Shown here: positions 6,413 to 55,052 of the stretch, piece after piece
Numbering within the stretch: the stretch's first letter is position 1
How the letters are laid out: the number at the start of each line of letters is the position of its first letter
The notes under the pieces: generated by a model
Database searches by the model: none
What the model was told of the DNA's origin: nothing
The model's input: only the letters and a program-made list of their open reading frames with translations
Origin: Alkalispirochaeta sp.
Lineage (GTDB): Bacteria > Spirochaetota > Spirochaetia > DSM-27196 > Alkalispirochaetaceae
NCBI GenBank assembly: GCA_965601925.1
Contig: OZ271854.1
Location: 4,640,001 to 4,704,000 of the forward strand
Length of the DNA: 64,000 nucleotides
Reading direction: 5' to 3'
Program-made: the position numbers and the translations under genes

Positions 6413-6457
6413 ATCGTATCGACGGCGGATGAGACGCCGCCGTAGGAGGTATTGAAT

Positions 6458-7726
6458 ATGGACTTGATTGCCGGTGCCGAGGCGTTGTTGGAGGAGTTCA
6501 AAGATGGTCGCTATGTGTACGGCGCGGGAGTCCTCTCAAAAGCGGGAAGGGTCGCGAGACGCGCCGGGAAGCGCGCGGCGATCGTGAGAGGGACCTTTCC
6601 CGGAAGCGACGGGTACGTGGCGACGGTTCGTGAATCGATGGCCGAGGCGGGTGTCGAGATCATCGCGGAGATCAAAGGTGCGCGTCCCAACGCCCCCGTG
6701 GAGGACTTGACGCGCATTACCGATGAGCTCACGCTCGCCGATCCCGACGTTCTGGTAAGTTTCGGAGGCGGCAGCACCATAGACGCCGTAAAGGCGGCGG
6801 AGGTACTGAGAACCGCAGGCGGCACTATCGAAGACTATTTCGGCACCGCCCTGGTGACCGGAGCGATCGAGAAAGGATGCCCATCACTTACCCCCCACGT
6901 CGCCATTCAGACGGCGGCGAGTTCCGGCGCCCACTTGAGCAAGTATTCCAATATCACCGACGTCGCCACGGGGCAGAAAAAACTCATCGTCGACGAGGCG
7001 ATCGTACCGGAACATCCTATGTTCGACTTTTCGGTGACCTACGACGCCCCCCGAAGCTTGACGATGGACGGCGCATTAGACGGGATCTCCCATTGCCTGG
7101 AGGTGCTCTACGGTGCCGTCGGCACGGCGTCGTACGGCAAAATTCGAGAGGTTGCCTCCATCGGCATCAACCTGGTAGTCGAATACTTACCTCGGGCGAT
7201 CGCCGGGACGACCGACACCGCCGCCCGAGACGCCCTCTGCCTCGCCACCGATCTCGGCGGATACGCCATTATGCTCGGCGGAACCAACGGGGGGCACCTG
7301 ACCAGCTTCTCCCTCGTAGACGTGCTGAGCCACGGCCGGGCGTGCGCTATGATGAACCCGTACTACACGGTGTTCTTTGCGCCGGCGATCGAGGAGCCGT
7401 TACGCATGGTGGGTGACATCTATCGTACTGCGGGCTTCACCGACGCCGACATATCTACGCTATCCGGTAGGGATCTTGGTGTGGCGGTGGCGGAAGGGAT
7501 GTTCGAGTTCGCCCGACGAATCGGTTTTCCGACCCGTTTGGGAGAGGTGCCGGGATTCTCCGACGCCCACATCGAGCGAGCACTGTCGGCGGCAAAAAAC
7601 CCGCAGCTGGAGATGAAGCTTAAGAATATGCCGGTATCGCTGAACGCGGGAATGATCGATGAGTACATGTCACCCATTTTGACCGGGGCGCGTGACGGTA
7701 CCATAGAGATCATCAAAAACGTGTAA
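6458..7726 (+). CDS. Iron-containing alcohol dehydrogenase family protein
   Basis: GGGSTIDAVKA motif; metal ligands in DGISH, GHLTS and SHGRA; AGGAGG RBS at 6444. Confidence 0.88.
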   Translation: MDLIAGAEALLEEFKDGRYVYGAGVLSKAGRVARRAGKRAAIVRGTFPGSDGYVATVRESMAEAGVEIIAEIKGARPNAPVEDLTRITDELTLADPDVLVSFGGGSTIDAVKAAEVLRTAGGTIEDYFGTALVTGAIEKGCPSLTPHVAIQTAASSGAHLSKYSNITDVATGQKKLIVDEAIVPEHPMFDFSVTYDAPRSLTMDGALDGISHCLEVLYGAVGTASYGKIREVASIGINLVVEYLPRAIAGTTDTAARDALCLATDLGGYAIMLGGTNGGHLTSFSLVDVLSHGRACAMMNPYYTVFFAPAIEEPLRMVGDIYRTAGFTDADISTLSGRDLGVAVAEGMFEFARRIGFPTRLGEVPGFSDAHIERALSAAKNPQLEMKLKNMPVSLNAGMIDEYMSPILTGARDGTIEIIKNV

Positions 7727-7772
7727 ATCGGCGCCGGCCGGCGACGCGTGCCGGACGAGAGGAGAGACGAGC

Positions 7773-9065
7773 ATGACTACCAGGATAGCGTATGGGAAGA
7801 CGGGACTGGAGATCGCGCTACCCGACGACGCGGCCACAACGGTGGTCGAGCCGCGTTACATCCCGGGAGCCGAGGACCAACTCGGCGTGGTCCGAGACGC
7901 ACTCCGTTCGCCGATCCGATCGCGTCCCCTCGCGGATCTCGTTCGCCCAACGGACCGCGTCGGAATCATCTTCAGCGATATCACGCGCCCCACGCCGTAC
8001 CGCGTCATTATTCCGGCGCTCCTCGCGGAGCTATCCCACGTCCCGGACGAGCGTATCGTCCTGTTCAACGCGACCGGCACCCACCGCCTCAACACCGAGG
8101 AAGAGCTGGTGACGATTCTGGGTCGTGACGTCGTCGACCGCCTTCGCATCGTGCAAAACGACTGTCGAGACGCGGCGGCGCACCGAACCGCCGGCACCAC
8201 CGAGAGCGGAAACGAGGTATCGATTCTGCGGGAGTTCCTTGACTGCGACGTGAAGATTCCAACCGGTTTCATTGAGCCCCACTTCTTCGCCGGTATGTCC
8301 GGAGGCGGTAAGGCGATCATGCCGGGATTGGCGTCCCTCGAAACGGTCATGCGCAACCACAGCGCCGCGCACATGGACCATCCTGAGGTACGGTGGGGCG
8401 TTACCGAGGGCAATCCGCTGTGGGAAGAGGTAACGGAGGCGGCGCTCTTCGCGGAGCCGTCCTTTCTCCTCAATGTAGCGCTCAATCGGGACAAGGAGAT
8501 CACTGCGGTTTTCGCCGGAGACTTTTTAGCCGCCCATAGAGCGGGATGCGACTATGTGCGTCGTCATGCGATGGCGCGCGTCGACGGGCTGTTCGATATC
8601 GTCATAACGAGCAACTCCGGACACCCCTTGGATCTCAACATGTACCAGGCCGTCAAGGGGATGAGCGCCGCCGGCCAGATCGTCCGCGACGGGGGTCACC
8701 TCATCGTTGCCGCCGACTGTTGGGACGGCATTCCCGAACACGGGAAATACGGCAAGCTGTTGACGAGCGCGACAACGCCGGAGGATTTATTGAGAACGGT
8801 CCGTCGACCCGGATTCGCCTGCCAGGACATGTGGCAAGCCCAGACTCACGCGTTGATCTGTCAAAGGGCGACGGTACACTTCCACAGCGCGCACCTCACG
8901 GACGAGCAGATTAGGGACGCCTTCATGGAGCCGACGTCGGATATCGGCGAGACGGTACGCCACCTCGTCGCCGGTGGGGTCGGAAAACGGGTGTGCGTGG
9001 TTCCTCAGGGTCCCATGACCATACCGTATGTAGCCGCAACGACGTCCGCCGCCCCGGAGAGATGA
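7773..9065 (+). CDS. larA: Nickel-pincer-dependent lactate racemase (LarA) family epimerase
   Basis: Motifs SDITRPTP, ATGTHR, EPHFFAGMSGGGKAIMPG, NHS and YQAVKG. Confidence 0.88.
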   Translation: MTTRIAYGKTGLEIALPDDAATTVVEPRYIPGAEDQLGVVRDALRSPIRSRPLADLVRPTDRVGIIFSDITRPTPYRVIIPALLAELSHVPDERIVLFNATGTHRLNTEEELVTILGRDVVDRLRIVQNDCRDAAAHRTAGTTESGNEVSILREFLDCDVKIPTGFIEPHFFAGMSGGGKAIMPGLASLETVMRNHSAAHMDHPEVRWGVTEGNPLWEEVTEAALFAEPSFLLNVALNRDKEITAVFAGDFLAAHRAGCDYVRRHAMARVDGLFDIVITSNSGHPLDLNMYQAVKGMSAAGQIVRDGGHLIVAADCWDGIPEHGKYGKLLTSATTPEDLLRTVRRPGFACQDMWQAQTHALICQRATVHFHSAHLTDEQIRDAFMEPTSDIGETVRHLVAGGVGKRVCVVPQGPMTIPYVAATTSAAPER

Positions 9066-12030: not shown

Positions 12031-12098
12031 TGACACGAGTCGCTCATGTCAAAAGGAAATAGCTTTTGATTGGCGGCGGGCCCGGCGAGTTCTATAAT
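12031..12098 (+). promoter_or_regulatory. TGACA-N11-TGTCA operator plus AT-rich tract, followed by a sigma70 promoter (TTGGCG-17-TATAAT)
   Basis: Motif 12031-12066, -35 at 12070, -10 at 12093. The same motif recurs on the minus strand at 23848-23883. Confidence 0.75.
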
Positions 12099-12154
12099 TG
12101 CGATGCAGTCCCTATGAGCGCTGCGCCCGGATTGTATCGGAGATTCGATATCAC

Positions 12155-14242
12155 GTGAGCGTACGAACGCGGGTCAACCAAATCATACACGCTCTTCTCG
12201 ACGCCACCGATTACGTCACCGCGTCGCATATAGCGCAGACGCTTAATGTCAGCACACGCACCGTCTTCCGCGAGATTCCGCACGTTGAGCGTCTACTCGC
12301 AAAACATCGACTGCATCTCGAGCGCCGGTCGGGGTACGGGCTCAAACTAACCGACGATGAGGAAGACCGCCGACGTCTCTTTGATGCGCTGCATGACCAG
12401 CGTATCGAAAAAAACTTCACTCCCCTCGACCGAGAGATCCTCACCGCGCTTCGCCTCATCGAGGCACGTTCCACCATTAAGCTCTTGGAGCTCGGTCAAT
12501 TTTTGAGGGTGACCGACTCGTGTGTCAGCCGGGACTTGGCGCGTTTGACGGATCGATTCACCCTCAACGGGTTGGAGCTGGTGAAGCGACCCGGGTACGG
12601 AGTCGAGCTGCGGGGGAGCGAGCGACGAAAACGAACCATGCTGATGCGTCTGTTTTTCGACAGCGTCGACCGCCGGTACTTCTCGGAGCGAGCATTCCAT
12701 CGTAGTGAGGACGTCTCGCTCACGACGGACTCGATATCGCGGAATGCCGGAGAACGGGAGCTCATTCGACAACTCTACGTACCCGGTCTTCACGCAGCTA
12801 TCGTCTCGACGCTACGCGGCGTCGAGCGGGTATTGGGATACCGCTTCACGTTCGCAGGGTTTATTACCCTCTATGTCTATCTATCCATCGCCTTGAGACG
12901 GATCGGCGACGGCCGGACGATGGAAGAAGAGATCGACATCGCGAACGCCGACGAACCGACGGTGCGCGCGGCAACGGACGCCTTTGTATCGCTCGGCGGC
13001 GTGTTGGCCGTACGGGAGGTACCGTCCGGTGAGATAGCGTTCCTTGCGCTCCTCTTCTACGCCGCGGATATCGATTCGTCGTCACGGTCCGAAACGACGC
13101 GTCCGCCGAGCGAGGAGCGTTACGACGGTCTCGTGAGACGATTGATACGAACCGTGGAAACCGAAAGCGGTTATTATCTACGCGACGACGACCGGATCGT
13201 ACCGCCGCTTTCGGCCTACGTGGAGCGGCTGATGCGCCGCATACGTCACGCCGTGCCGGTCTGGTACGCCCGGGAAGAGGTCCCGCGCTACACCGAGGTG
13301 GAGGCCCTACGAAGCGGCGTGGAGACGATCCTCGTTGAGGAGGCGCGCTCGCCGGTACCGGAGGCGGAAGTGCACGCCGTGCTTGCCTATTTCGCCGCCG
13401 CTCTGGTAGAGAAACACGAGCTGAACGTCGCAAGTATTCGTGCGATCGTCGTCTGTTCCGCCGGCATCGGAAGCTCCGTCTATCTCGCTCACAGGATACA
13501 GAGCGTCTTTCCTCAAGTCGACGTCGTGGAGAAGATATCGGCGTTCGGCGTCAATCCGGATCACATCGCGGAAGATGAGATCGACTTGGTAGTCTCGACC
13601 TATCCGATTCCCGATCTGCCCGTGGATTGCCTCGTCCTCGGCCCGAGCTTCGACCGAGGGGACGAGGAGGCGTTACGCGCGTGGATAGATACCGCTCAGT
13701 CGAGAGAGGGGCATCGAAGAACGAGCTCCGATGAACCCAAAACGGCCCACAGAGACCACGTGGACTCCATCATTCCGCCGATTCTCGCGGTGATGGAGAC
13801 CTTTTTTGTGCTCGACGCGGACGATATCGAACACGTCGGTGCGATAGGGGATACGATCGCGCAAGTAGTCGGAATCGTCGCCTCGGACCGTGGGAGGATC
13901 ACGTCGGCGTTGGAGGCGCGGGAAGCTCTCGGATCGATTATCGTACGCGAACGCTCGATTCGCCTGTTGCACTGTAAGACCGATTGCGTTACGGCGGTTC
14001 ACGCGGGCGTCTTGCGCTCCGTCGCGGTGAGTCGGGGATACGATACGTGTCTCGTGCTCATGCTGCCGGAGACTGCGACGAAACCGGAGCACGCGGTATT
14101 GGCCGAGCTAAGCAGCCAGCTGGTCCGGGATCATAACTTCGCGCAGGCACTGCGACACGGTACGCGGAGTGAGATCATCTCGGAGCTTATCCACATCTAT
14201 CACACATTTCTCTACAGCGAGCGATATCAAGGAACGAGGTAA
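12155..14242 (+). CDS. PRD-containing PTS-regulated transcriptional activator (MtlR/LicR type: HTH-PRD-PRD-EIIB-EIIA)
   Basis: HTH LNVSTRTVFREI, second HTH, EIIB motif VVCSAGIGSS, C-terminal EIIA RE..GS...LLHCKT; GTG after GGAG. Confidence 0.88.
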   Translation: MSVRTRVNQIIHALLDATDYVTASHIAQTLNVSTRTVFREIPHVERLLAKHRLHLERRSGYGLKLTDDEEDRRRLFDALHDQRIEKNFTPLDREILTALRLIEARSTIKLLELGQFLRVTDSCVSRDLARLTDRFTLNGLELVKRPGYGVELRGSERRKRTMLMRLFFDSVDRRYFSERAFHRSEDVSLTTDSISRNAGERELIRQLYVPGLHAAIVSTLRGVERVLGYRFTFAGFITLYVYLSIALRRIGDGRTMEEEIDIANADEPTVRAATDAFVSLGGVLAVREVPSGEIAFLALLFYAADIDSSSRSETTRPPSEERYDGLVRRLIRTVETESGYYLRDDDRIVPPLSAYVERLMRRIRHAVPVWYAREEVPRYTEVEALRSGVETILVEEARSPVPEAEVHAVLAYFAAALVEKHELNVASIRAIVVCSAGIGSSVYLAHRIQSVFPQVDVVEKISAFGVNPDHIAEDEIDLVVSTYPIPDLPVDCLVLGPSFDRGDEEALRAWIDTAQSREGHRRTSSDEPKTAHRDHVDSIIPPILAVMETFFVLDADDIEHVGAIGDTIAQVVGIVASDRGRITSALEAREALGSIIVRERSIRLLHCKTDCVTAVHAGVLRSVAVSRGYDTCLVLMLPETATKPEHAVLAELSSQLVRDHNFAQALRHGTRSEIISELIHIYHTFLYSERYQGTR

Positions 14243-14246
14243 CGGT

Positions 14247-14705
14247 ATGGGTCTAAAAAAGTACTTACGAGAATACAAGACGGTGCGACTGAAAGTGACG
14301 GTTGCGGATTGGGAGGAAGCGATACGGGTCGGCACGGATCTATTGGTAGAGACGGGCGCGATCGAGCCGCGTTACTACGACGCCATCGTCGAGAGTTGCC
14401 GCAACCTGGGTCCCTACTTTCTCGTGGCTCCCGGTCTCGCAATGCCCCACGCACGGCCGACCGAGGGCGTCCGTGCCAACGGGTTTTCCCTCGTCACTCT
14501 GGCACAGCCGGTTTCATTCGGAGACTCGGAGAACGACCCCGTCGATATCCTGATTACTATGGCGGCAAAGGACGCAAAGACACAAAACGAACGCGCAATC
14601 GTGGAGATCGTGGAGCTCTTCGACGATGCGGATACGGTTCGTCGACTGCGCGCCGCCGAGACGATGGAAGATATCAAGGCGCTCTTGGCCGAAGAGCGAG
14701 AGTAG
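14247..14705 (+). CDS. PTS IIA component (Fru/Mtl/ascorbate class, UlaC-like)
   Basis: DWEEAI, GPYFLVAPGLAMPHARP with the phospho-His. Confidence 0.92.
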   Translation: MGLKKYLREYKTVRLKVTVADWEEAIRVGTDLLVETGAIEPRYYDAIVESCRNLGPYFLVAPGLAMPHARPTEGVRANGFSLVTLAQPVSFGDSENDPVDILITMAAKDAKTQNERAIVEIVELFDDADTVRRLRAAETMEDIKALLAEERE

Positions 14706-14733
14706 TGAGCACCATAGACCGAAGGAGTACGAT

Positions 14734-15006
14734 ATGGTTCGTCGAACCGTCACGGTTACCAATGAGGAGGGCCTTCACACCCGACCGGGCAATCAGTTCG
14801 TGAAGGAGGCCAAAAAGTACGCATGCGAGATCACCGTCCACAAAGGTGACAAAACGGCCAACGCCAAGAGCATGCTCAAGCTTTTGAAAGTGGGCATTTC
14901 CAAGGGAGACGTGATCGAAATCGCCGCCGAAGGCGACGACGAGGAGCGGGCGGTCACCGAGCTCATCGCGCTCATAAATCGGCTGGGCTCGAAACGGGAC
15001 GCGTAA
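14734..15006 (+). CDS. ptsH: HPr family phosphocarrier
   Basis: GLHTRP (His15), AKSM (Ser46), GDDE..A; AAGGAG RBS. Confidence 0.93.
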   Translation: MVRRTVTVTNEEGLHTRPGNQFVKEAKKYACEITVHKGDKTANAKSMLKLLKVGISKGDVIEIAAEGDDEERAVTELIALINRLGSKRDA

Positions 15007-15155
15007 GACGACGTCGGCAGGCGGCAACGGAGTGATACGTGCGGCGTACATCCTTCGGTCCGACGACGTTGCATCGTCGGTAGTCGGCAGGCGCGTTAAT
15101 ACCGCGTTTACAAAAAGGGTTGCGATGCACCCGCCGAGTCCGACAAAGAACCGCC

Positions 15156-17351
15156 TCAGCGAACCATCAACGCCGCAACGCGGTCGCGACGAAGCACATA
15201 CTCGAAACGGACCACCTCGCCGTCGGTGGTGAAGGGAATCGTCTCGCCGGTGAGCACCTCGGTAATAGTCGTCGTTTCGGCCGTACGTCGGAGACTCACC
15301 CGAATCGGCTTCTTCCCGTTGACGAAAAACTCACTGCGGCGATCGCGCTGCACGAAGTGGGTGCATAACAACATCTCTCCATCGCCTCCCCTCACGCGAT
15401 GGACGTCCACCTCGCGTTCACAGCGGTTGGCGTACTCTACGGTGAGCGCCGCCGTAATGCGGCGCTCGGCAAGGAGGTCACGCATGAGATCGAACGCCAA
15501 ATCCCTCGCGCCCTCGACGTAGGCGGCATCGAAATGCGTCGCGACATAGAGCGCGGCACCCGTACCGACCAGGTTCCGCACCGCCGCAGGACCGTCGTCG
15601 AAAAAACGGGCGACGATCCGCGCACCACGGTCCTTGTCCCCCGACTGCCCGGACGCCACGGAGATATACTCCCTGTGCCAGTGGCCCGTATAGTTCCTGT
15701 CGCGATAGGTCACAGCCGGCGCAGCGCCCGATTCAACACCGGTGACGCGCACGCCGAAGGTTGCCGCCAACGCGCCGCACGGCAGTCCGTGGTTGTACCA
15801 CCCCCGCTCTCCCACAACTCCGCCCTGGGCGGTACCGACGAGCAATCCGCCGCTCTCGACGTACCGCGCCGCCGCGGCCGCGGTCGCACGATCGATGTGA
15901 AAGAGCGCCGGCATATGAATGACCGCGTAGTCGTCGGCATACCCCGACCGGAGGAGCTCCGGCGTAATGAAATCGACGGTGAACCCCATCTCGGTATAGA
16001 GACGATAGGCTCCCCGGATCGCCCGGAGTAGAAACTCCTCCTGGGAGACGCCGGACAAGATGATCTGATTCTCCTTGGAACACAACAAGGCCACCTCGCC
16101 CTTGCCGGTCGTAGCGTTACAGAGAAAACTGCCGTACTCCGAGAGGAATCGCCCCACTTCGGCGCACGAGTCGGTTCGTTCGGTGGGATTACCGTCCAGA
16201 TCGACGATACCGCCCCATCGCAGGGGCTGAAAGTCCCACTCCTTCCACCCCATGTAGTGAATCATCTTGGCGTCGTGACCGATCACTTCGAAGGCGTTCC
16301 TGAGGATGTCGGCGCCGCCGGTCGCACGATGAGGACCGAGCATCCAGCCGTTAATCGGACCGCTTTCGAGTTCGATAAGCCAGTACGGCTTGCCGAGGGG
16401 GCGGGAGACGCTCCGGGCGTGATCGAGAAAGAGGCTGGAGAACTCGCTCCGTCTTTCCAGTTTGTCGCCACTACCGGGATAGAGGTCGTAGCTGATGACG
16501 TCGACGACCTCGGCCATGGCAAACTGGTCAAGGCCCATCATCGATCCGAAGGGGTCTTGAGACTTCATGTAAAAGATGTTGGTCGTCGTCGGATGGTCGC
16601 GATCGAGATGCTTGATGATATCGTTTTGCCACGCTACGAAACGCACGAATCGGTCCATCCAAAAGAGTCGCCAGTCGAGCCAACGCGTAACCGAGCTCCA
16701 CCCCTCGGGTCTGATGCGCGGCGGTTCTACCTCATCGAAACTGCGGTAGACCGTGTTGGTGGCACTCCACGTCCACGCCTCGTTTAACTCCTCGATACTC
16801 CGATAGCGTCCCTCGATCCACCGCCGGAAGGCGCGAATCGAGTGGGCGTTGTAACAAAAGATCCGCATCGATCCCGACTCGGAGGACATGAAGGGAAAGC
16901 CGATTTCGTTGTGAATCTGATACGCATAAAGCGCTTTATGTCCCCGATAGCGCTCGACCACGGCCGTGATGTACCGTTCGGCCGCCCCGATATATGCCGG
17001 ATGGTCGATGCACGCCCACGAGTAAGCGGCGTTTAGGGGATAGGGGTGCCCGGTCGCATCCACGATATGTATGTCCGGATGGTCGGCATGCAACCAATAG
17101 GGGGGCGAGGCCGTTCCGCTGCCGAGAATGATACCCATCTCCGCCTCGGCGCACTCCTCGAAAAACTCGTCGAGAAACTCGAACCGATATACCCCGCTCT
17201 CCGGCTCGATCCGGTCCCACGTGTTGAAAAGCTCGGCGGTACGTACGACGTTCATGCCGCACGAACGCATGGCGGACAGATCGCGACGCCAATGTTCGCG
17301 GCGCTCCAACAGCGGATAATAGCCGGCACCGTAGGGGTACCCGTTAACCAT
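15156..17351 (-). CDS. Beta-galactosidase, GH42 family (cytoplasmic)
   Basis: YGAGYYP, WDRIEP, HNE (acid/base), WLDWRLF, WLIELESG (nucleophile), trimerisation domain; no signal peptide. Confidence 0.88.
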   Translation of the reverse strand: MVNGYPYGAGYYPLLERREHWRRDLSAMRSCGMNVVRTAELFNTWDRIEPESGVYRFEFLDEFFEECAEAEMGIILGSGTASPPYWLHADHPDIHIVDATGHPYPLNAAYSWACIDHPAYIGAAERYITAVVERYRGHKALYAYQIHNEIGFPFMSSESGSMRIFCYNAHSIRAFRRWIEGRYRSIEELNEAWTWSATNTVYRSFDEVEPPRIRPEGWSSVTRWLDWRLFWMDRFVRFVAWQNDIIKHLDRDHPTTTNIFYMKSQDPFGSMMGLDQFAMAEVVDVISYDLYPGSGDKLERRSEFSSLFLDHARSVSRPLGKPYWLIELESGPINGWMLGPHRATGGADILRNAFEVIGHDAKMIHYMGWKEWDFQPLRWGGIVDLDGNPTERTDSCAEVGRFLSEYGSFLCNATTGKGEVALLCSKENQIILSGVSQEEFLLRAIRGAYRLYTEMGFTVDFITPELLRSGYADDYAVIHMPALFHIDRATAAAAARYVESGGLLVGTAQGGVVGERGWYNHGLPCGALAATFGVRVTGVESGAAPAVTYRDRNYTGHWHREYISVASGQSGDKDRGARIVARFFDDGPAAVRNLVGTGAALYVATHFDAAYVEGARDLAFDLMRDLLAERRITAALTVEYANRCEREVDVHRVRGGDGEMLLCTHFVQRDRRSEFFVNGKKPIRVSLRRTAETTTITEVLTGETIPFTTDGEVVRFEYVLRRDRVAALMVR

Positions 17352-18747
17352 GTATCGCTCCTTGAAGGAGGGACAGGCTGCGCGAAGCGTCGTCGGGGCC
17401 GGCGAGCAGGATGGGCTCTATATCCGACCATTTACAGTACTCCAGGAGGGTCGCCGTGTCGTCACCGTAGGCGATGGAGTAATGGTGCTCGATACCGTGG
17501 GAAAAAATCGCCTCAAGGAGCTTCGGAGCGCCGCAGTCAAAGACGATATCGACGTGGTTTCCCGCCAGTTCACGATCGGGTCGTACCGCGGTACCGGGAG
17601 CGATAAGAAGCTTGTAGCGCCCTTCGTCCTCGCTGAGCTTCGCCATGGTTACGCGTCCGTCGGCCAGTGGGAAGTCCGCGGCCATGCCGATTCCCTCCTT
17701 GATCGTGGGATGCTCGATGTAGCGCGTCCTCGCCTCGGGATCGGCGAGACAGCGAGCCGCCGGGCCGCAATGCCACGCCTTCACGACCCCTTTCGGACTG
17801 ATGTCGACCAAATCGGCGAGGAAGGGCGGTCGATCGGAGACCGAGCGGTGGATTACCATCGTCGCGAGCGCCGGGATATCACCCTCGCAACTCACGACGA
17901 CGCCCTCGTTATTCAGCCGTGATACGACGCCGCAGACCGCCACGCGGTACAGCGTCTGAAACTCGGGCCAACACCGAATTGCAAAGGCCGCAACGTCGTT
18001 CCGGTCACCGAATGCCCGAACGGCGCGATATACGCGCGCCGACCGTTCCACCGCTTCGCGCGTCGCCTCGACGAGATCGACCTCTCCGTATATTCGCGTT
18101 ACCTCTTCGGCCACTTCGTCGTCGGTGTATCGGCGTGCAGCCTCGACGACCTCGCCGACGGAGTGATAGATAATCTCCGGCCCGATCGTCCTCGCAAAGC
18201 GCAACTCGTCTACCCCGGCGCGATAAAATCCCGGAGCACGCTCGCCGATACTGCAGAATCGAGCGCGTCGCAGCCCCTTGCGGAGTCGGATCGCCGTGAT
18301 CCATCGCCGTATCGTCGCCCGCGCCTCATCCTCGTCGACCGACGCGTAGAGCGTACTGAAACGCCGCCGGAGCTTGTAGAGAAAACTGGCACTCATATTC
18401 AGTCCGCATAGCGAGTTAAGCGGCAAGGCGGGTATCCCCGGTGTCTCCGGCTCCCGGAATCCCCAGAGAAAAAGCGGCGTCGTGGGGATCGCCTCCGCAA
18501 GGGCGACGATGGTACGCCCCATCGAGAAGGTGCCGCATTGGATGATAATCATATCCGGCGCGTCGCGACCAAACACGTCGACGGCCTGTGCCACCTCACG
18601 CTCGTCGGTAACGACCTTGGGTACCGCGCTCACTTCGACATCCTGCTGAGATCGCAGAAGGGCTTCTGCGGCATCGAGATACGATTGAGCAATATCGACG
18701 CGAAACTTCACAAAACCGAGCGAAACAAGCCCTACCTTGACATTCAT
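17344..18747 (-). CDS. L-fucose/L-arabinose isomerase family protein
   Basis: NSLCG, AIRCWPE, SCEGD, WHCG and GIEHHY motifs; GGAGG RBS. Confidence 0.85.
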   Translation of the reverse strand: MNVKVGLVSLGFVKFRVDIAQSYLDAAEALLRSQQDVEVSAVPKVVTDEREVAQAVDVFGRDAPDMIIIQCGTFSMGRTIVALAEAIPTTPLFLWGFREPETPGIPALPLNSLCGLNMSASFLYKLRRRFSTLYASVDEDEARATIRRWITAIRLRKGLRRARFCSIGERAPGFYRAGVDELRFARTIGPEIIYHSVGEVVEAARRYTDDEVAEEVTRIYGEVDLVEATREAVERSARVYRAVRAFGDRNDVAAFAIRCWPEFQTLYRVAVCGVVSRLNNEGVVVSCEGDIPALATMVIHRSVSDRPPFLADLVDISPKGVVKAWHCGPAARCLADPEARTRYIEHPTIKEGIGMAADFPLADGRVTMAKLSEDEGRYKLLIAPGTAVRPDRELAGNHVDIVFDCGAPKLLEAIFSHGIEHHYSIAYGDDTATLLEYCKWSDIEPILLAGPDDASRSLSLLQGAIHG

Positions 18748-18764
18748 CCGACAGCCTCCTCGCC

Positions 18765-19607
18765 TCATCGCCGTGCGGCACACGCCGCTATCCGCCCCGC
18801 TACCGCCTCTCGCAGTGCCAGCCGTCCCGCCTCTGCGACGCGCATCATGGGCGGCTCGTCAGCGCCGTCCAACGCATCGCGCATGCCGCGCACAAAAGCG
18901 CGATCGATATCGGTATAATAGTTGACTTTGGCAATCCCACGTTCGATGCAGCGTCGCAGTTGGCCGTCCTCGATTCCGGACGCTCCGTGGAGGACCAAAG
19001 GAACGTGAGTTTCCTCGGCAACTCGTTCAAGAACATCAATACGAAGCGCGACGGGGCCGTGATAGGTGCCGTGACGGTTACCGATCGCGACGGCCAGAGC
19101 GTCGATGCCGCTTGAAGTGACGAAATCGCGCGCCTGTGCGGGGTCGGTGTATACCGGCTCCACCGCGCGGTCGGCCTCATCGTGCCCACCCTCTTCTCCG
19201 CCGAGCGATCCCAGTTCAGCCTCCAGCGTCACGCCGCGACGATCACACACGACGCGGGAGCGCCGTGTAGCGTCTAGGTTCGCCGCGTAGGGAAGTGCGC
19301 TCCCATCGTACATCACCGAGTCGAATCCCGCCTCGACCGCACTCTCGACCTCCTCGACCGCGGTCGCGTGGTCCAGGTGGAGCGCGTACGGCGCCGTGTA
19401 AAACCGTCCGATGGCGCGCGCAACGGCGACAAACTCGGCAAATCGCATACTCTGTTCCCGGAGCTGAATCGGCGCGATCTGGAGGATCACCGGCCGGCGC
19501 GCATATGACGCGGCCTCCAAGACACCCTTGATACTCTCCATGTTGCTGACGTTTACCGCAACTACGGCCGAGCCCTCGCTACGGGCCCGTTGGAGCATCT
19601 CTTTCAC
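18765..19607 (-). CDS. Class II fructose/tagatose-bisphosphate aldolase family protein
   Basis: HLDH, SVMYDGS, EAELG, IGNRHG, LVLHGASG, KVN; GTGA overlap with the dhaK stop. Confidence 0.9.
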   Translation of the reverse strand: MKEMLQRARSEGSAVVAVNVSNMESIKGVLEAASYARRPVILQIAPIQLREQSMRFAEFVAVARAIGRFYTAPYALHLDHATAVEEVESAVEAGFDSVMYDGSALPYAANLDATRRSRVVCDRRGVTLEAELGSLGGEEGGHDEADRAVEPVYTDPAQARDFVTSSGIDALAVAIGNRHGTYHGPVALRIDVLERVAEETHVPLVLHGASGIEDGQLRRCIERGIAKVNYYTDIDRAFVRGMRDALDGADEPPMMRVAEAGRLALREAVAGRIAACAARR

Positions 19608-20617
19608 GACGCCGTTTCGTCGTACTGAGAAAAGGCGACCGCGTCGGTAGAGGCTCTCCACAACGACTTGAGCCGATCATCGAGCTTACAGAACGAGAGC
19701 GCGATACCGCCCATCTCCTGGGTCGTAACGAAGCTCCCGATCAGCGGTTTGTACGTCGCGATATGTAGTTCTTCCAAGGCCGCGGCGACGGCACCGAAGA
19801 AGATCAAGAGCTCCATCTGGGTAGTAGAGCCGCATCCGTTTACGATGACGCCGAGTTCGTCTCCGCCCTCGTAGCCGCCGTCGGCAACGAGACGCTCCAC
19901 CATCATTCGCGCGACGTCCCGGGCGCTCGCGTGGGAGATGGTGTCTCGCGCCGCCTCGCCGTGCACCCCCATACCGAGTTGCAGCTCATCGTCGCCGAGA
20001 CGAAACATCTCGGCTCCCGTGAGGGGTGAAACACCGGGAGTTGAGGCTACCGTGAGTGTACGCGTTCGATCGCGAATGTGTCGCGCCAGTTCGGCCACTT
20101 GAGAGAGGTCGCTTGACATCTCGGCGTACACGCCGGCCATCTTGTATACGAACAGCGTGCCGGTCGTCCCGCGCCGCTCCTCGATCCTATCGGCCGGTGC
20201 GCTTGCGATGTCGTCGTAGAGAATCACCTCCTCCACGGTAATCCCGTCGTCTCGCGCCATCTCAATTGCCATACGCGCATTAATGACGTCGCCCTCGTGA
20301 TTGCTGATCAAAAGGACGACTCCCGCACCGCGATCGCTGGCGGCGACGGCGGCGCAGATGGTGTCCGGTCCCGGTGCGGCGAAGATGTTCCCGTACGCGT
20401 TGGCGTCGAGCATATTCCTCCCGACAAAGCCGATGCACGCCGGCTCGTGTCCCGATCCGTTGCCGATCGTCAGGCCGACACGTCCGACCGTCTTGGGCCG
20501 GACGCGCACAATGACCGACGAGCCGGGAAGCTTTCGCACCCGCTCACCATAGGCGCGGGCAAACCCCTCGATCATGTCCTCTACAATCGTCTCCGGGTCG
20601 TTTATAAACTTCTTCAT
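19604..20617 (-). CDS. dhaK: Dihydroxyacetone kinase-family substrate-binding subunit DhaK (copy 1)
   Basis: MKKFIND, GSGHEP, GMGVHGE. Confidence 0.9.
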   Translation of the reverse strand: MKKFINDPETIVEDMIEGFARAYGERVRKLPGSSVIVRVRPKTVGRVGLTIGNGSGHEPACIGFVGRNMLDANAYGNIFAAPGPDTICAAVAASDRGAGVVLLISNHEGDVINARMAIEMARDDGITVEEVILYDDIASAPADRIEERRGTTGTLFVYKMAGVYAEMSSDLSQVAELARHIRDRTRTLTVASTPGVSPLTGAEMFRLGDDELQLGMGVHGEAARDTISHASARDVARMMVERLVADGGYEGGDELGVIVNGCGSTTQMELLIFFGAVAAALEELHIATYKPLIGSFVTTQEMGGIALSFCKLDDRLKSLWRASTDAVAFSQYDETAS

Positions 20618-21240
20618 CGCTCATCTCCCATCGCCCCGGCCGACTGCGCAAGGGCGCGGATAATCAACCAACACGACGTCGCCCCGGCATCCCGGTGGCC
20701 CACCGATTTGTCACCCACGTACTTGGCTCGCCCGCGTTTCGCGACCATCGCCTGCGTCGCCTCGGCCCCGTTACGGCTCGCCCGCTCGGCCTCACCGAGT
20801 GCGTCGGAGAGGGAAAGGCCCCCATCCACGGCGTGGGAAAGCGCCTCCACCGCCGGATGTAGCGCGTCGATCAACGTTTTGTCCCCGGGGCGCGCGCCAC
20901 CGAGTGCTTGGATCTTCCGCAGGGCCGCGGTGAGTCCGTCGCGCACCGTCTCGGCCGACAGCTCGCCTTCGGCGAGGCTCCGCCCCAGCTCGATGAACAG
21001 CGTTCCGAACATCGGCCCCGATGCACCACCCATCTCGGAGAGGAGCGTACGGCCGAACAGAGTGAACATCCGCCCCGGGGGAGTGTCTGTTTGCAAACGG
21101 TCCAGAGCGACGCGCACGCCCCTGGCCAGACTCTCGCCGTGGTCGCCGTCGCCGACGGCGGCGTCGAGCTCTCCCAGGAGAACGCGATGCTCTTCGATCG
21201 ACCGGGTCACCATCGCCAATGTCGTTCTATCCATCGTCAC
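20614..21240 (-). CDS. dhaL: Dihydroxyacetone kinase-family ADP-binding subunit DhaL (copy 1)
   Basis: LDAAVGDGDHG, GGASG, GDKTLID, KRGRAKY, DAGA. Confidence 0.92.
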   Translation of the reverse strand: MTMDRTTLAMVTRSIEEHRVLLGELDAAVGDGDHGESLARGVRVALDRLQTDTPPGRMFTLFGRTLLSEMGGASGPMFGTLFIELGRSLAEGELSAETVRDGLTAALRKIQALGGARPGDKTLIDALHPAVEALSHAVDGGLSLSDALGEAERASRNGAEATQAMVAKRGRAKYVGDKSVGHRDAGATSCWLIIRALAQSAGAMGDER

Positions 21241-22079
21241 GGTTCCTCTTTAAACAGGTCGCGCAAAAAGGCGATCCCCTCCTGCGCAGCGTGCCGCCGG
21301 GAGGGCTCGATATTCCTCCATATCGCAACCGCGTCGCCGATCTCGCAGTTCGATGTGACGAAGGACTCAAGGGTTATCCAGCTGTCGTAGTCGATCGTTT
21401 GGAGCGCGCGCTCAAGTGCGCGCCATCGCACGGATCCGCTTCCCGGCACACCGCGATCATTCTCGCATACGTGGAGATGAACCATTCGTTCACCCGCTTG
21501 CATGACGGCCCAACCGAGATCCTTCTCCTCGATCGACAGGTGAAACGTATCGAGATGCAGTCCGACATTGTGCGCACCGATACGGCGCACGAAACGCAAT
21601 CCGTCGTTAACGGTGTTCAGGAGCGATCCCTCGTATCGATTCAAGAGTTCCACGGCCAACGTCACGCCGCGGGAGGCTGCATACTCGGCGACGCGCACAA
21701 GAACGTCTATACTCCGCGTCGCGGCGTCGGCTTGCCGGCGTCCGGTAACGCCCCACGGCGCATACAAAACACCGCAGAGAATCTCGCTCTCCAGCTCATG
21801 ACAAATCTCGATGCACGTACGCAGGTGCGCCTCCCCCGCCGCTCGCAACGCGGCGTCCTCGCTCGTGATATCCGTCGCGGCGCTCAATCCCGTACCGCAC
21901 GTGCACGCCAACGCGGTCGCCCGCAAGGCGTCTCGCGCCGCAACGCGGTCAAAAGCGCGAGGATCGACGAGGGGAAACTCAACTCCGTCGTATCCCATCT
22001 CTGCCGCTACCGGCACATAGGGCACTACGTCCTCGGTCCACTCCTCGGTAAATGTTGAGAGATGTATTCCAAACTTCAT
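21237..22079 (-). CDS. Ketose 3-epimerase (D-psicose/D-tagatose 3-epimerase family)
   Basis: ELLNRYE, HLDTFHLSIEE, HVCENDRGVPGSG, LESF, AIWR: the metal and catalytic residues of the DTE family. Confidence 0.88.
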   Translation of the reverse strand: MKFGIHLSTFTEEWTEDVVPYVPVAAEMGYDGVEFPLVDPRAFDRVAARDALRATALACTCGTGLSAATDITSEDAALRAAGEAHLRTCIEICHELESEILCGVLYAPWGVTGRRQADAATRSIDVLVRVAEYAASRGVTLAVELLNRYEGSLLNTVNDGLRFVRRIGAHNVGLHLDTFHLSIEEKDLGWAVMQAGERMVHLHVCENDRGVPGSGSVRWRALERALQTIDYDSWITLESFVTSNCEIGDAVAIWRNIEPSRRHAAQEGIAFLRDLFKEEP

Positions 22080-22157
22080 ATGGACCCGCGTGATACCAAA
22101 CGGCCCGCCCGCGAGTACCCGCGGCCGGGCCGGTACGGAACTACCGTGCGCACCGAA

Positions 22158-23441
22158 TCAGAAAATGCGCGCGACGAAGCCCGACAAGACGGCGAAGATC
22201 GAAAAGTCGTTGCCGCCGAAGGCCTGTAAAAAGTCCGCGCCGGTACTCGCCAGGAACGGAAGCGATACGGCGGCAAACACCATCAACAAGACGCCGCCGA
22301 TCGCGCTCGCCAGAATCGCACCCCGTCGCCCACCGGTCGCGTTGCCGAAGATGGCCGCCGGCGCGACATCGAAAAAACAGGCCACCGTCAGGGGCACGAG
22401 CGAGTACACGAGCCGTCCGGTAAGGGAGATAACGACCAACGTCACGATACTGGTAGCGATGGAGACGATAAACCCGATCAACAGCGCGTTGGGCGCATAC
22501 GGGAAGACCATCGGGATGTCGAGGGCCGGCGTGCTGTCGGGGATCAATTTTCCGGAGATACCGTGGAACGCCGGGATGATCTCGTTAAGCATCATACGCA
22601 CACCGGTGAGCAGCACGGTGATACCGGCTCCGAAGGTCATACCCTGCAGAATCGCGTAGCTCACCAAATCGCCGCCGCCGAATGCGTTTGCGCGACCTTC
22701 GGCACCGATAATGAGACCGACGACGAAATAGAACAGCAGCATGACGATGCCGGTGGTTACGGTGGTGTCGCGGACGAACTCCATCCATTGCGGAATGGTG
22801 AGGTTTTCCGTCGATTTTTCCTTGGGGTCTTTGTTACCGAACGCCTTGCCGATGAGCCCGCCGATAATCCCGAGACCGACTGCGGTATGGCCGATGGTGA
22901 AGCTGTCGTCACCGGTAACCTTCTTTACGAACGGCTTGATGAGCGCGGGAGTTACAACGATGTAGAGCGAGAGCATAATCGTTGCAAACACGACCAAGGC
23001 GGTACCGCTCAGTCCACCCTCGACACCGGCGGCAACGAAAATGAAAGACATCCAAAAGAAGATGTGACCGGTGAGGAAGATGTTCTTCAGTTTCGTGAAC
23101 CGCGCGACCAACAAGTTCACAAGAAATGCCAGGACCATCACCAACCCGATCGTCGATCCGTGTGTTCCCAGAAATGCGCCGAACCCGAAATCGGGATCGA
23201 TCGCCCGCATCCCTTCGGCGGCGAAGATGTCCGCAAACGCCTGTCCGATCGGATTGATGGATGCGACGATAATGTCGACGCCTCGCATGAGGACGATGAC
23301 ACCGATCACCGTCTTGAGCGTCCCCTTGACGATCGTACTGAAGTCCTTCTTCTGCAACAACATACCGACCAGAGCAATAAGGCCCAGAAAAATCGGAGGC
23401 TGGCGAAAGATGTTCTGTACGAGGTAATTGATGAATCCCAT
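22158..23441 (-). CDS. PTS IIC component, ascorbate (UlaA/SgaT) family
   Basis: IFLTGH, FTIGH, GVRMML.EI.PAF.GIS.KLIP...PALD.P. Confidence 0.92.
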   Translation of the reverse strand: MGFINYLVQNIFRQPPIFLGLIALVGMLLQKKDFSTIVKGTLKTVIGVIVLMRGVDIIVASINPIGQAFADIFAAEGMRAIDPDFGFGAFLGTHGSTIGLVMVLAFLVNLLVARFTKLKNIFLTGHIFFWMSFIFVAAGVEGGLSGTALVVFATIMLSLYIVVTPALIKPFVKKVTGDDSFTIGHTAVGLGIIGGLIGKAFGNKDPKEKSTENLTIPQWMEFVRDTTVTTGIVMLLFYFVVGLIIGAEGRANAFGGGDLVSYAILQGMTFGAGITVLLTGVRMMLNEIIPAFHGISGKLIPDSTPALDIPMVFPYAPNALLIGFIVSIATSIVTLVVISLTGRLVYSLVPLTVACFFDVAPAAIFGNATGGRRGAILASAIGGVLLMVFAAVSLPFLASTGADFLQAFGGNDFSIFAVLSGFVARIF

Positions 23442-23502
23442 ATCCTTCTCCTCTCGTCTGACGCGCCTTGTACGCGCTTTCTCGATGACACTACAGTCTC
23501 GT

Positions 23503-23784
23503 TTATCGCGGCAGCACCTGTTGCAGCTTCTCCTTGATCTCCGCAGAGTCCAGAAAGTTCCCTACCTGAACGACGGGAACACTCACCTTTCCGTCGAGTT
23601 GTGCAAAAATCTCTTTCGACGTCACGATAAGATCGACTTGCTCTGACGCCGCGGTGGTCAAGTCCGCGGTAATGACCTCGGCTTTGATGTCGAGACTCTG
23701 CAGCACCTCCGCAAGCTTGATTTTGAGAATGACACTGCTCCCGACGCCGAAGCCGCACACCGCGGCGACTCGCATTTTTTGCAT
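23503..23784 (-). CDS. PTS IIB component (Lac/Cel/Asc type)
   Basis: AVCGFGVGSS with the phospho-Cys; AAGGAG RBS. Confidence 0.92.
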   Translation of the reverse strand: MQKMRVAAVCGFGVGSSVILKIKLAEVLQSLDIKAEVITADLTTAASEQVDLIVTSKEIFAQLDGKVSVPVVQVGNFLDSAEIKEKLQQVLPR

Positions 23785-23815
23785 ATCGGCTCTCTCCTTG
23801 GTGGGTCTATGTTCC

Positions 23816-23883
23816 TTTGTACGTCCGCTCCGGTATCCGCACAAGGGAAAGATATTTTTATTTGGCAAGAGTTCTCCGTGACA
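23816..23883 (-). promoter_or_regulatory. TGTCA-N11-TGCCA operator plus AT-rich tract, followed by a promoter (TTGTGC-17-TACAAA) for the PTS catabolic operon
   Basis: 24/36 identity with 12031-12066 and the same 3-nt gap to the -35. Confidence 0.7.
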
Positions 23884-23885
23884 CC

Positions 23886-25253
23886 CTACCGATCTCGAAA
23901 GCGCTCGGTCTCCCGTAGAATCGCCTCGGCGTTGTCTCGGTTAAGATTGGAGAACTTCGCTACCTCCCGCACGGCGATACTGATTTCCCGAGCATCCCGA
24001 TTGACCCGCGTCACGGTCTCCCGTATCTCCTGCGTAGCGCCGTTGAGATCGGCGATCGCGGTAACCATCTGCGAGTTTCCCTCCCGCATCTGTTGCGACC
24101 CGGTGTGGACGGTCGCGGTGATCTCTTGCATCTGCTTGAGGGCGTCAAGCACCTGTATGCCGCCGGTGCTCTGCTCCTTCAGCGATTGGCCGATCTCGCG
24201 GAAAACGCGGTTGACCGTCCCGATGTTGTCGACGATCCCCTCGAACTCGCCGTGCGTCTCCTTCACCATACCGACGGCCCCGTTGATCGCCGTGCGGATC
24301 TCATCGAGGTCGCGCTCTACCGATGCGGCCTGCGTTCCCGCCAACTCCGCAAGCTTGCGGATCTCGCCGGCAACGACTCCGAACCCCCTACCGGCGTCGC
24401 CGGCGTGCGCTGCCTCGATGGCGGCGTTCATCGCAAGGAGATTGGTACGTTGCGCGATATCGGAGATAAGCTGATTGGCCTGGGCGAGCTTCTCGGAGTT
24501 TTCGGCGATGGTCGTCGTCTTCTGAAGGACCGCTCCCAGCTTAGTGCGCCCGCCGTCGGAGGAGCGAACCAACGTCTCGACGCTCGCCGCTCCCCGCTCG
24601 GTAGACATATCTACCGCTCGGATGCTTGCAACGAGTTGCTCGACCGCGGAAGAAGATTCGCTAATGGTCGTCGATTGACGCTCGATCAGGTGATTCAACG
24701 ACTCGATCGCTTGGGACAGCTCAGATATCGTCGCGGAGGTTTCCTCAATTCCGGCCGCCTGCCCCTCGACGCTCCCATGTATCCCTTCGACCGCCGAGCT
24801 TATCAGATCGACCGCGTCGGCGGTCTCCTCCATGCTCGAAGAGAGCGTTCCGCTGGAGCTCTCCAGCATGCCCGCTTTGTCGTCGACCTGCCGCACGAGA
24901 TCTCGCAATACGGCAACCAGCTCCTTTGACGCCTCTCCGAGTCGTGCCACTTCCGCCCGACCGCGCCACGTGATCTGTTCGTCGAGATCTCCGGCCGCGA
25001 TGCCGCGTAGCGATTCCGCGATCCCGACGAGTTGGGACGCGATCGCACGACGCACCACCAGTCCGAGTATCACCGACATTACGGCCCCGCCGACAACCAG
25101 GGCGGCCAGAGAAAACGGTGATACATGCGCGGCGAAAAACGCTTGGGATAGTGCGCTCCACGCGGCGACGATAACGGTAAAGAGGAGAAACGCTACGGCA
25201 CTGACTGAGAGTGCGACCCCCATGGATTTCAATGAATGGTCCGCCTTCTGCAT
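23886..25253 (-). CDS. Methyl-accepting chemotaxis protein (TM hairpin-HAMP-signalling domain)
   Basis: IAQRTNLLAMNAAIEAAHAGDAGRGFGVVAGEIRKLAE. Confidence 0.92.
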   Translation of the reverse strand: MQKADHSLKSMGVALSVSAVAFLLFTVIVAAWSALSQAFFAAHVSPFSLAALVVGGAVMSVILGLVVRRAIASQLVGIAESLRGIAAGDLDEQITWRGRAEVARLGEASKELVAVLRDLVRQVDDKAGMLESSSGTLSSSMEETADAVDLISSAVEGIHGSVEGQAAGIEETSATISELSQAIESLNHLIERQSTTISESSSAVEQLVASIRAVDMSTERGAASVETLVRSSDGGRTKLGAVLQKTTTIAENSEKLAQANQLISDIAQRTNLLAMNAAIEAAHAGDAGRGFGVVAGEIRKLAELAGTQAASVERDLDEIRTAINGAVGMVKETHGEFEGIVDNIGTVNRVFREIGQSLKEQSTGGIQVLDALKQMQEITATVHTGSQQMREGNSQMVTAIADLNGATQEIRETVTRVNRDAREISIAVREVAKFSNLNRDNAEAILRETERFRDR

Positions 25254-25424
25254 AACACCCTGCAACTTCGAGTCGGTAGTACAACCGTAGTGAGTTATTG
25301 TATGCCGTTAAGCGAGGAGAACACCAATCAAAGATATTTCTCTTTGTCGCGGTCGCCCCGTGCCAGGTTGTCGTATACATCGGCCATTGAACCGACCGGA
25401 ATATCCTCTATAATGCTACCCATT

Positions 25425-49476: not shown

Positions 49477-49528
49477 CGCTTGCACTCCTTTCCTCTGTTT
49501 TTTTTGAAGCCTGCTTCTTGTCGTTAGA

Positions 49529-50164: not shown

Positions 50165-50204
50165 TCCACTCCTCCAAGGATGTCGACTCGTGTCGCACGC
50201 GCTG

Positions 50205-51829: not shown

Positions 51830-51883
51830 ATACTCTTCTCTCTTTCTGCGTGCCGCACCGAAAGGCGACGCACCGTTGCTCCA

Positions 51884-54048: not shown

Positions 54049-54115
54049 GCGTACTACCTTGCCGGCATCGACTCCCGACGGGACGCACAGTCCCGCCGGA
54101 TCGAATGAGAAACCG

Positions 54116-55012: not shown

Positions 55013-55052
55013 GACTACACTCCTTTGTCTTTTTCCGGCAACGCCGGTTTTG

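What the first reader, a model, noticed from the sequence alone, without database searches (positions are those of the whole stretch)
12031..23883. Candidate new pathway: ascorbate-class PTS, ketose 3-epimerase, atypical aldolase, DhaKL, isomerase and GH42 in one regulon
Seen: PRD activator-IIA-HPr on + converges on IIB-IIC-3-epimerase-dhaL-dhaK-aldolase-isomerase-GH42 on -, with several overlapping start/stops. No ulaG/D/E/F and no phosphofructokinase-type kinase is present. The aldolase has EPPMMR where class II FBP/TBP aldolases have DPR, and QIAP where many have Q.S. DhaK has SNHEGD for KNYTGD. Established: that Arg binds the 6-phosphate, and Dha kinases also accept glyceraldehyde or erythrulose. 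Inference: a rare ketose (psicose/tagatose/sorbose-like) or a glycoside of it enters as the 1-phosphate, is epimerised, and is cleaved to DHAP plus a free aldehyde that DhaKL phosphorylates. I know of no described pathway with this gene set.
Basis: partly seen in the sequence, partly recalled or inferred. Interest (0 to 1): 0.75.

Follow-up and report, generated by a model that had tools for sequence, protein, structure and literature searches.

The report
Candidate arsenosugar-degrading PTS operon
This sugar-uptake operon recurs with the same core genes in 16 other bacterial loci and likely breaks down a glycerol-linked, end-blocked ribose-type sugar, possibly the seaweed arsenic sugar whose degrading enzymes are still unknown.

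Summary
The gene set is real and conserved. IIB, IIC, ketose 3-epimerase, DhaL, DhaK, an AraA/FucI-fold isomerase and a GH42-like hydrolase occur together in 17 of 17 non-redundant loci. A HAD-IIA phosphatase is in 16, a FucO-like reductase in 7 and glycerol-3-phosphate dehydrogenase in 4. None has GlpK or DhaM.

These isomerase and epimerase families work on free sugars, and the aldolase lacks a distal phosphate site. More likely the PTS phosphorylates the aglycone (glycerol) and the hydrolase, which has lost its galactose-binding residues, frees an aldose. Isomerase and epimerase then give a (3S)-ketose, DhaKL acts as the ketose 1-kinase, and the aldolase yields DHAP plus a neutral aldehyde.

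The stereochemistry and linked nucleoside hydrolases point to a C5-blocked ribose. The one natural glycerol beta-riboside I know of is the algal arsenosugar. This route would give dimethylarsinoylethanol, its known breakdown product, whose pathway is unknown. Against this: human-gut carriers exist and no core ars genes are adjacent. No activity was tested. Arsenosugar about 0.3; undescribed pathway about 0.85.

The parts
12098..14242 (+). MtlR/LicR-type regulator (HTH-Mga...EIIB-like), PRD region degenerate; likely start GTG 12155
14247..14705 (+). PTS IIA, ascorbate/UlaC-like
   Evidence: PRK10372 182 bits, cutoff 187
14734..15006 (+). HPr
15156..17351 (-). GH42-like glycosidase; catalytic Glu pair kept, galactose O4/O6 ligands (Arg121, Glu366, His369 of BiBga42A) lost
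17344..18747 (-). AraA/FucI-fold aldose-ketose isomerase of an uncharacterised subfamily (SftI model 236 bits, cutoff 700)
18765..19607 (-). Class II TIM-barrel aldolase; metal and DHAP site kept, distal-phosphate Arg/Ser lost
19604..20617 (-). DhaK-family substrate subunit with GNGSGHEPAC / SNHxGD signature; proposed ketose 1-kinase
20614..21240 (-). DhaL nucleotide-binding subunit
   Evidence: TIGR02365 over cutoff
21237..22079 (-). Ketose 3-epimerase (D-allulose/D-psicose/L-ribulose 3-epimerase family)
22158..23441 (-). PTS IIC, L-ascorbate (UlaA) family
   Evidence: (PRK09410.1-1 447 bits, cutoff 380)
23503..23784 (-). PTS IIB

Best explanation
[quoted passage not shown] All steps are inferred. 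(1) The UlaA-type PTS phosphorylates the free primary OH of the glycerol tail, which resembles ascorbate's diol tail. (2) The GH42-like enzyme frees the aldose and glycerol(-phosphate); the HAD-IIA phosphatase and G3P dehydrogenase of homologous operons handle the latter. (3) The isomerase gives the ribulose form (3R,4R). (4) The 3-epimerase gives the xylulose form (3S,4R), which DHAP aldolases of the FBA/TBA/LacD type and transketolase require. (5) DhaKL, with an opened pocket and often no DhaM, phosphorylates C1. (6) The aldolase releases DHAP and X-acetaldehyde. (7) The FucO-like enzyme reduces it to X-ethanol, which for X = Me2As(O) is dimethylarsinoylethanol (DMAE).
For: Shown: core 17 of 17, HAD 16, FucO-like ADH 7, G3PDH 4, GlpK 0, DhaM 0, PfkB 1 (a separate KDG-type cluster). 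In L148 a type-2 G3PDH trio and a nucleoside hydrolase lie inside the operon; it is that genome's only trio hit and glpK is on another contig. In G486 the operon trio is a second copy; the other sits beside glpK. The cleaving enzyme varies: this class II clade in 14 loci, another class II clade in L101, a class I LacD-like aldolase in L148, none found in L109. A sister cluster with the same epimerase subfamily and a related isomerase uses transketolase instead; all of these need a 3S ketose (established knowledge, recalled). Nucleoside hydrolase or ADP-ribosylglycohydrolase genes lie beside or a few genes from the sister isomerases. The hydrolase lost the galactose O4/O6 ligands. The aldolase lost the 6-phosphate Arg/Ser. 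DhaK lost Lys104, and DhaK-family LerK/DerK phosphorylate longer ketoses (PMC13753588 passages). Thiol-redox accessories recur: MerA-like reductase in 3 loci, rhodanese in 2, C-GCAxxG-C-C in 2, CGGC plus ArsP_1 permeases in 1. All 7 cultured species named for the closest isomerases are marine or saline isolates (names; habitat recalled). DMAE is a known arsenosugar product and the pathway is stated to be unknown (PMC10594586 passages).
Against: No enzyme activity, growth or expression data. The isomerase and hydrolase also occur, with consecutive accessions, in Anaerostipes caccae; the hydrolase is also in Eubacterium callanderi/limosum, Dorea, Clostridium amylolyticum, Clostridium sp. cel8 and one C. 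difficile record, so the system is not marine-only. No ArsR, ArsC, Acr3/ArsB or ArsM family was hit among the 106 flanking proteins scanned; the ArsP_1 pair in L104 is the only ars-type hit. The MerA-like reductase, rhodanese and YnjB-type ABC module sat beside no named ars gene in 8 of 8 plasmid regions viewed. G3PDH is absent from 13 of 17 loci, and in L131 glpABC is only convergently adjacent. If the natural arsenosugar is the (R)-glyceryl form (recalled), PTS phosphorylation gives sn-glycerol-1-phosphate, which needs the HAD and an unlinked GlpK before G3PDH. The window itself lacks the HAD, ADH and G3PDH in its operon. One study saw no DMA(V) form from AsSug328 with human enteric bacteria, only thio-sugars (PMC6656958 passages). 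Arsenosugars are a scarce carbon source (recalled).
Confidence: 0.4

Rival explanations
1. Same free-sugar architecture, but the sugar is an L- or 6-deoxy-hexose (L-galactose, L-fucose, 6-deoxy-L-talose). It goes via L-tagatose or L-fuculose to L-sorbose or 6-deoxy-L-sorbose 1-phosphate and is cleaved to DHAP plus L-glyceraldehyde or L-lactaldehyde, which is reduced to glycerol or propanediol.
For: FucI-fold isomerase and FucO-like reductase; the 3R to 3S logic is the same; glycerol from L-glyceraldehyde could explain G3PDH; fits gut and marine carriers alike.
Against: G3PDH lies in or beside operons that have no Fe-ADH (L131, L148). It does not explain the nucleoside hydrolase or the thiol-redox accessories. 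It names no aglycone for the PTS to phosphorylate.
Confidence: 0.2
2. The PTS phosphate stays on the sugar: an aldose 5- or 6-phosphate is isomerised, epimerised, phosphorylated at C1 by DhaKL, and the bisphosphate is cleaved to DHAP plus (L-)glyceraldehyde 3-phosphate, which is reduced to sn-glycerol 3-phosphate.
For: Explains G3PDH without GlpK; the nearest named isomerase model (SftI) takes a sugar with an anionic C6.
Against: The aldolase has no basic residue at the distal site in 17 of 17; the epimerase has no extra invariant Arg/Lys; DhaK lost a Lys; a phosphatase is in 16 of 17 loci.
Confidence: 0.12
3. One reading: a rare ketose enters as its 1-phosphate, is epimerised and cleaved, and DhaKL phosphorylates the free aldehyde.
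For: The aldolase suits a ketose 1-phosphate; no PfkB in 16 of 17 loci; Dha kinases can accept glyceraldehyde (recalled).
Against: Leaves the isomerase and hydrolase (17 of 17) unused; DPE/LRE epimerases act on free ketoses (one search hits; recalled); the FucO-like reductase and HAD suggest the aldehyde is reduced; the window's genome has five other DhaK genes, one canonical with DhaM.
Confidence: 0.1
4. beta-Galactosylglycerol from galactolipids is the substrate: galactose to tagatose to tagatose 1-phosphate, cleaved to DHAP plus D-glyceraldehyde.
For: GH42 annotation; the AraA fold is the top structural match; a glycerol aglycone fits G3PDH; abundant substrate.
Against: The axial-O4 ligands Arg121/Glu366 and the O6 ligand His369 are lost; tagatose is already 3S, so the epimerase (17 of 17) would be idle; the operon is rare (1 of 401 Lachnospiraceae, 6 of 380 Clostridiaceae, 1 of 401 Vibrionaceae genomes).
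Confidence: 0.1

Closest known systems
DHAP shunt for 5-deoxyribose (DrdK/DrdI/DrdA; Beaudoin 2018, PMC6079011, abstract read)
   Same: A C5-blocked ribose is phosphorylated at C1, isomerised and cleaved to DHAP plus a two-carbon aldehyde.
   Different: Different order and enzyme families here (isomerase, then 3-epimerase, then DhaKL kinase, then TIM-barrel aldolase), plus PTS import and a glycosidase.
Sulfo-EMP2 / sulfo-TK pathways (SqvD or SftI, SqiK, SqiA; PMC10665668 and PMC12890257, passages read)
   Same: FucI-fold isomerase, C1 kinase, class II aldolase lacking the reciprocal Arg; aldolase and transketolase variants; aldehyde reductase.
   Different: Isomerase far below the SftI cutoff (216-276 against 700 bits); no sulfoquinovosidase or SqiK; has a 3-epimerase, PTS and DhaKL.
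L-ascorbate PTS regulon (UlaABC with UlaGDEF)
   Same: Transporter family; IIC passes the UlaA equivalog cutoff.
   Different: No ulaG/D/E/F; two Gln next to the conserved His residues of UlaA are replaced (Trp130 invariant; Thr).
LerK/DerK erythrulose kinases (PMC13753588, passages read)
   Same: DhaK-family kinase acting on a ketose longer than DHA.
   Different: Distinct signature (GNGSGHEPAC/SNHxGD) and context; proposed pentulose substrate.
L-fucose / D-arabinose pathway (FucI-FucK-FucA-FucO) and XylA-II (PMC2873477, passages read)
   Same: Free aldose isomerised by a FucI-family enzyme, ketose 1-phosphate cleaved, aldehyde reduced by a FucO-type enzyme.
   Different: Kinase and aldolase are non-homologous to FucK/FucA, and a 3-epimerase is inserted.

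Membership tests
ula (L-ascorbate) regulon | UlaA-family IIC | tested here: met
   PRK09410.1-1 447 bits, cutoff 380
ula (L-ascorbate) regulon | ulaG/D/E/F in the locus | tested here: not met
   No such ORF in the cluster
Class II FBP/TBP aldolase | Metal ligands, catalytic Asp and DHAP-phosphate site | tested here: met
   HLDH, NRHG, LHGASG, KVNxxT aligned with 1gvf
Class II FBP/TBP aldolase | 6-phosphate site (DPR Arg, Ser49) | tested here: not met
   No Arg at the DPR position in 17 of 17 operon aldolases; site described in PMC10665668
Sulfo-EMP2 (SftI/SqvD-SqiK-SqiA) | SQ isomerase equivalog, sulfoquinovosidase, SF kinase | tested here: not met
   NF048012 236 bits (window), 216-276 (homologs), cutoff 700; no such hydrolase or kinase in the loci
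D-psicose/D-tagatose/L-ribulose 3-epimerase family | Glu-Asp-His-Glu metal/catalytic set and Arg | tested here: met
   E144, D177, H203, E238, R209 invariant in 15 of 15; best PDB hits are ketose 3-epimerases; below the D-psicose equivalog cutoff, 215 against 300
PEP-dependent DHA kinase DhaKLM | His-Asp-His catalytic residues | tested here: met
   H57, D110, H219 invariant
PEP-dependent DHA kinase DhaKLM | DHA-binding Lys104 and a DhaM subunit | tested here: not met
   Ser in place of Lys in 18 of 18 (role of Lys104 recalled); DhaM in 0 of 17 loci and not found in 3 of 5 carrier genomes; the window's genome has one elsewhere
GH42 beta-galactosidase | Catalytic acid/base and nucleophile Glu | tested here: met
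   N148-E149 and E327 invariant
GH42 beta-galactosidase | Galactose O4/O6 ligands Arg121, Glu366, His369 | tested here: not met
   Replaced, by sequence alignment to 8ibr and 1kwg; roles from PMC10688820; subfamily WAC and QPxxW motifs in 111 of 120 homologs
AraA/FucI isomerase superfamily | Fold and metal ligands | tested here: met
   AF2 model pLDDT 92.5; TM 0.74-0.81 to AraA and FucI; E288, D312, H326, H421 invariant
Arsenosugar catabolic pathway (no family defined) | Turnover of AsSug328 to DMAE | not testable with these tools
   Needs assay

The most novel reading that the evidence does not exclude
This is the first gene cluster for microbial arsenosugar breakdown: a PTS that phosphorylates the glycerol tail, a GH42-fold beta-ribosidase, a ribose isomerase/3-epimerase pair, a DhaM-independent DhaKL pentulose 1-kinase and an aldolase that together make dimethylarsinoylethanol, present in marine anaerobes and, at least in part, in human gut bacteria such as Anaerostipes caccae.
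Probability: 0.28. Interest if true: 0.92.

Novelty: new variant of a known kind. Interest (0 to 1): 0.74.

Why it matters
Arsenosugars are the main arsenic form in seaweeds. They are broken down to DMA, DMAE and DMAA in marine microcosms and in people, with large individual differences, yet the biochemical pathway is stated to be unknown (PMC10594586). A concrete gene set in culturable bacteria makes this directly testable. Even if the substituent is not arsenic, the operon offers five probable new activities: a non-galactose GH42, a new isomerase specificity, a physiological role for a ketose 3-epimerase, a DhaKL ketose 1-kinase that often lacks DhaM, and a new substrate for the ascorbate-class PTS.

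Tried and rejected
The viral scan was empty. Phylum sample: 40 of 401 genomes had a distant isomerase; of the 19 non-own loci checked only G285 showed the synteny. Link of the MerA-like reductase, rhodanese and YnjB module to ars genes: not shown, 0 of 8 regions. ArsS over cutoff in 0 of 5 carrier genomes (uninformative for a degrader). The promoter/terminator scan was at chance level. The Atlas search on the sister-cluster P-loop protein gave only unnamed clusters. The Chlorohelix plasmid isomerase (32%) has a different context. Literature searches found no description of this gene set or of arsenosugar-degrading enzymes; most subscription journals are not in that library, and no supplements were read. 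One search was mostly noise. In one search, 21 genomes were not scored, so 6 of 380 is a floor. Fragmentary loci L107, L111, L113, L127 and the frameshifted duplicate L108 were left out of the 17-locus census; L103 and L106 were merged with their duplicates. The isomerases of L123, L125 and L126 are related (82% for the pairs listed), so the 17 loci are not fully independent.
Full report
Observation. Four junctions of the minus-strand run overlap. The host is probably a spirochaete: the nearest named aldolase (82%) is labelled Spirochaetales. The genome has 4 class II aldolases, 6 DhaK genes, 8 enzyme I matches over cutoff, and a canonical DhaK-DhaL-DhaM(HPr-EI) locus elsewhere. Housekeeping needs therefore do not explain this copy.

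Conservation. The isomerase defines a tight subfamily: 49 of 82 hits score at least 351 bits and the next scores 257. Loci came from metagenome contigs (21 loci) and from genome samples: 1 of 301 in the order of G401, 6 of 380 Clostridiaceae, 1 of 401 Vibrionaceae, 1 of 401 Lachnospiraceae, and G285 in the own phylum. After merging duplicates and dropping four fragments and one frameshifted duplicate, 17 loci remain, the window included. IIB, IIC, epimerase, DhaL, DhaK, isomerase and hydrolase are in 17 of 17. A HAD-IIA phosphatase is in 16 (missing only in the window). A FucO-like Fe-ADH is in 7 (the window has only a distant, unlinked one). G3P dehydrogenase is in 4, a MerA-like reductase in 3, rhodanese in 2, a nucleoside hydrolase in 1, GlpK and DhaM in 0, and PfkB in 1, as part of a separate KDG-type cluster. 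Three to four loci bring their own enzyme I and HPr. The operon is thus a selected, rare, mobile unit.

What the residues say. Aldolase: the metal and DHAP sites are intact. The Arg and Ser that hold the 6-phosphate of FBP (PMC10665668 passages) are replaced by Q[IV][AS]P-type and YMM-type motifs in all 17 aligned operon aldolases. However, only 24 of the 120 nearest aldolases keep [DE]PR, so the loss alone is not diagnostic. DhaK keeps its catalytic His/Asp/His but has Ser for Lys104 and a GNG motif in 18 of 18 homologs. Three other paralogs in the genome have Gly there, and DhaK-family LerK/DerK phosphorylate erythrulose (PMC13753588 passages). DhaM was not found in 3 of 5 carrier genomes, so the phosphoryl donor is open. 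The epimerase is closest to allulose, psicose and ribulose 3-epimerases and has no extra invariant basic residue. The isomerase has the AraA/FucI fold (TM up to 0.81); known relatives act on free xylose (PMC2873477 passages) or sulfoquinovose, but it scores far below the SftI cutoff. The hydrolase keeps both catalytic Glu but has lost Arg121, Glu366 and His369, which bind galactose O4 and O6 in BiBga42A. This rests on sequence alignment only.

Mechanism (inferred). The sugar-processing enzymes look built for a sugar with no distal phosphate, so the PTS phosphate most simply lands on the aglycone. G3P dehydrogenase points to glycerol. It lies inside the operon in L148, where it is the genome's only trio hit and glpK is on another contig. 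It is a second, glpK-free copy in G486. It is a different family (GlpABC), merely adjacent, in L131. The cleaving step is filled by three different aldolase types. A sister cluster with the same epimerase subfamily uses transketolase, with AOR, LarA, a P-loop protein and a ComA-like gene. All such enzymes need a 3S ketose (established knowledge), so the isomerase product should be 3R. Nucleoside hydrolase and ADP-ribosylglycohydrolase genes near these isomerases point to D-ribose, whose ketose is 3R,4R. Plain ribose would go through ribokinase, so C5 is probably blocked, as in the 5-deoxyribose DHAP shunt (PMC6079011 abstract).

Why arsenosugar. [quoted passage not shown] Run through the steps above it gives DHAP and dimethylarsinoylacetaldehyde, then DMAE by reduction. 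DMAE and DMAA are its known metabolites, DMAE forms in marine microcosms, and the pathway is stated to be unknown (PMC10594586 passages). The 1982 report of this alcohol from anaerobic kelp decay was seen only as a reference title. Thiol-redox accessory genes and one ArsP_1 permease pair would suit an arsenic product.

Against it. Human-gut and other non-marine species carry the hydrolase, and A. caccae also carries the adjacent isomerase; I could not read those loci. No core ars family was hit among 106 flanking proteins. The reductase/rhodanese/YnjB module was beside no named ars gene in 8 of 8 regions. G3PDH is linked in only 4 of 17 loci. The glycerol stereochemistry may give sn-glycerol-1-phosphate (recalled). 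One gut-simulation study found only thio-sugars. I put the free-sugar order with DhaKL as 1-kinase at about 0.7, a C5-blocked riboside of glycerol at about 0.4, and arsenosugar specifically at about 0.28.

Novelty. Six literature searches and three look-ups of earlier scan findings found no description of this gene set or of arsenosugar-degrading enzymes. The library omits most subscription journals and no supplements were read. The logic (isomerase, C1 kinase, aldolase, aldehyde reductase) is of a known kind; the enzyme set, the inserted 3-epimerase and the likely substrate are not described. Verdict: a real, conserved, uncharacterised catabolic operon with a specific and testable high-value hypothesis.

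Noticed in passing
L114-L122 (e.g. L117:1-11344): Sister cluster: same epimerase subfamily and related isomerase with split transketolase, AOR, two LarA-type racemases, a hydroxyacid dehydrogenase, an unnamed P-loop protein and a ComA-like gene. It may convert a 5-substituted pentose to a 3-substituted lactate and eliminate the substituent to give PEP (untested).
   Followed up: partly
window 48448-52612: Second DhaK-DhaL-HAD-class II aldolase-GntR cluster, just downstream of a ribose-type ABC transporter and PfkB kinase (53137-57582).
   Followed up: no
G000:C1:4975238-4981194: Another Ula-type PTS (IIC 28% to the window's, IIB, IIA) near an enzyme I gene; possibly the true ascorbate system.
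   Followed up: no
G000:C1:863308-887221: ynj-like module (rhodanese, YnjB-type ABC, CDP-alcohol phosphatidyltransferase, MerA-like reductase) close to an ArsC-like gene and phosphate ABC genes; identified by eye from translations.
   Followed up: no
G000 whole genome: Eight enzyme I matches over cutoff and six DhaK paralogs in one genome.
   Followed up: no
window 6452-9065: Fe-ADH and nickel-dependent lactate racemase LarA genes 3 kb from the regulator; no evidence that they belong to the operon.
   Followed up: partly
window 23886-25265: Methyl-accepting chemotaxis gene on the same strand 101 nt upstream of IIB.
   Followed up: no
G486, G1173, G1885: Split DhaK/DhaL with no DhaM match in the genome, implying another phosphoryl donor.
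   Followed up: partly
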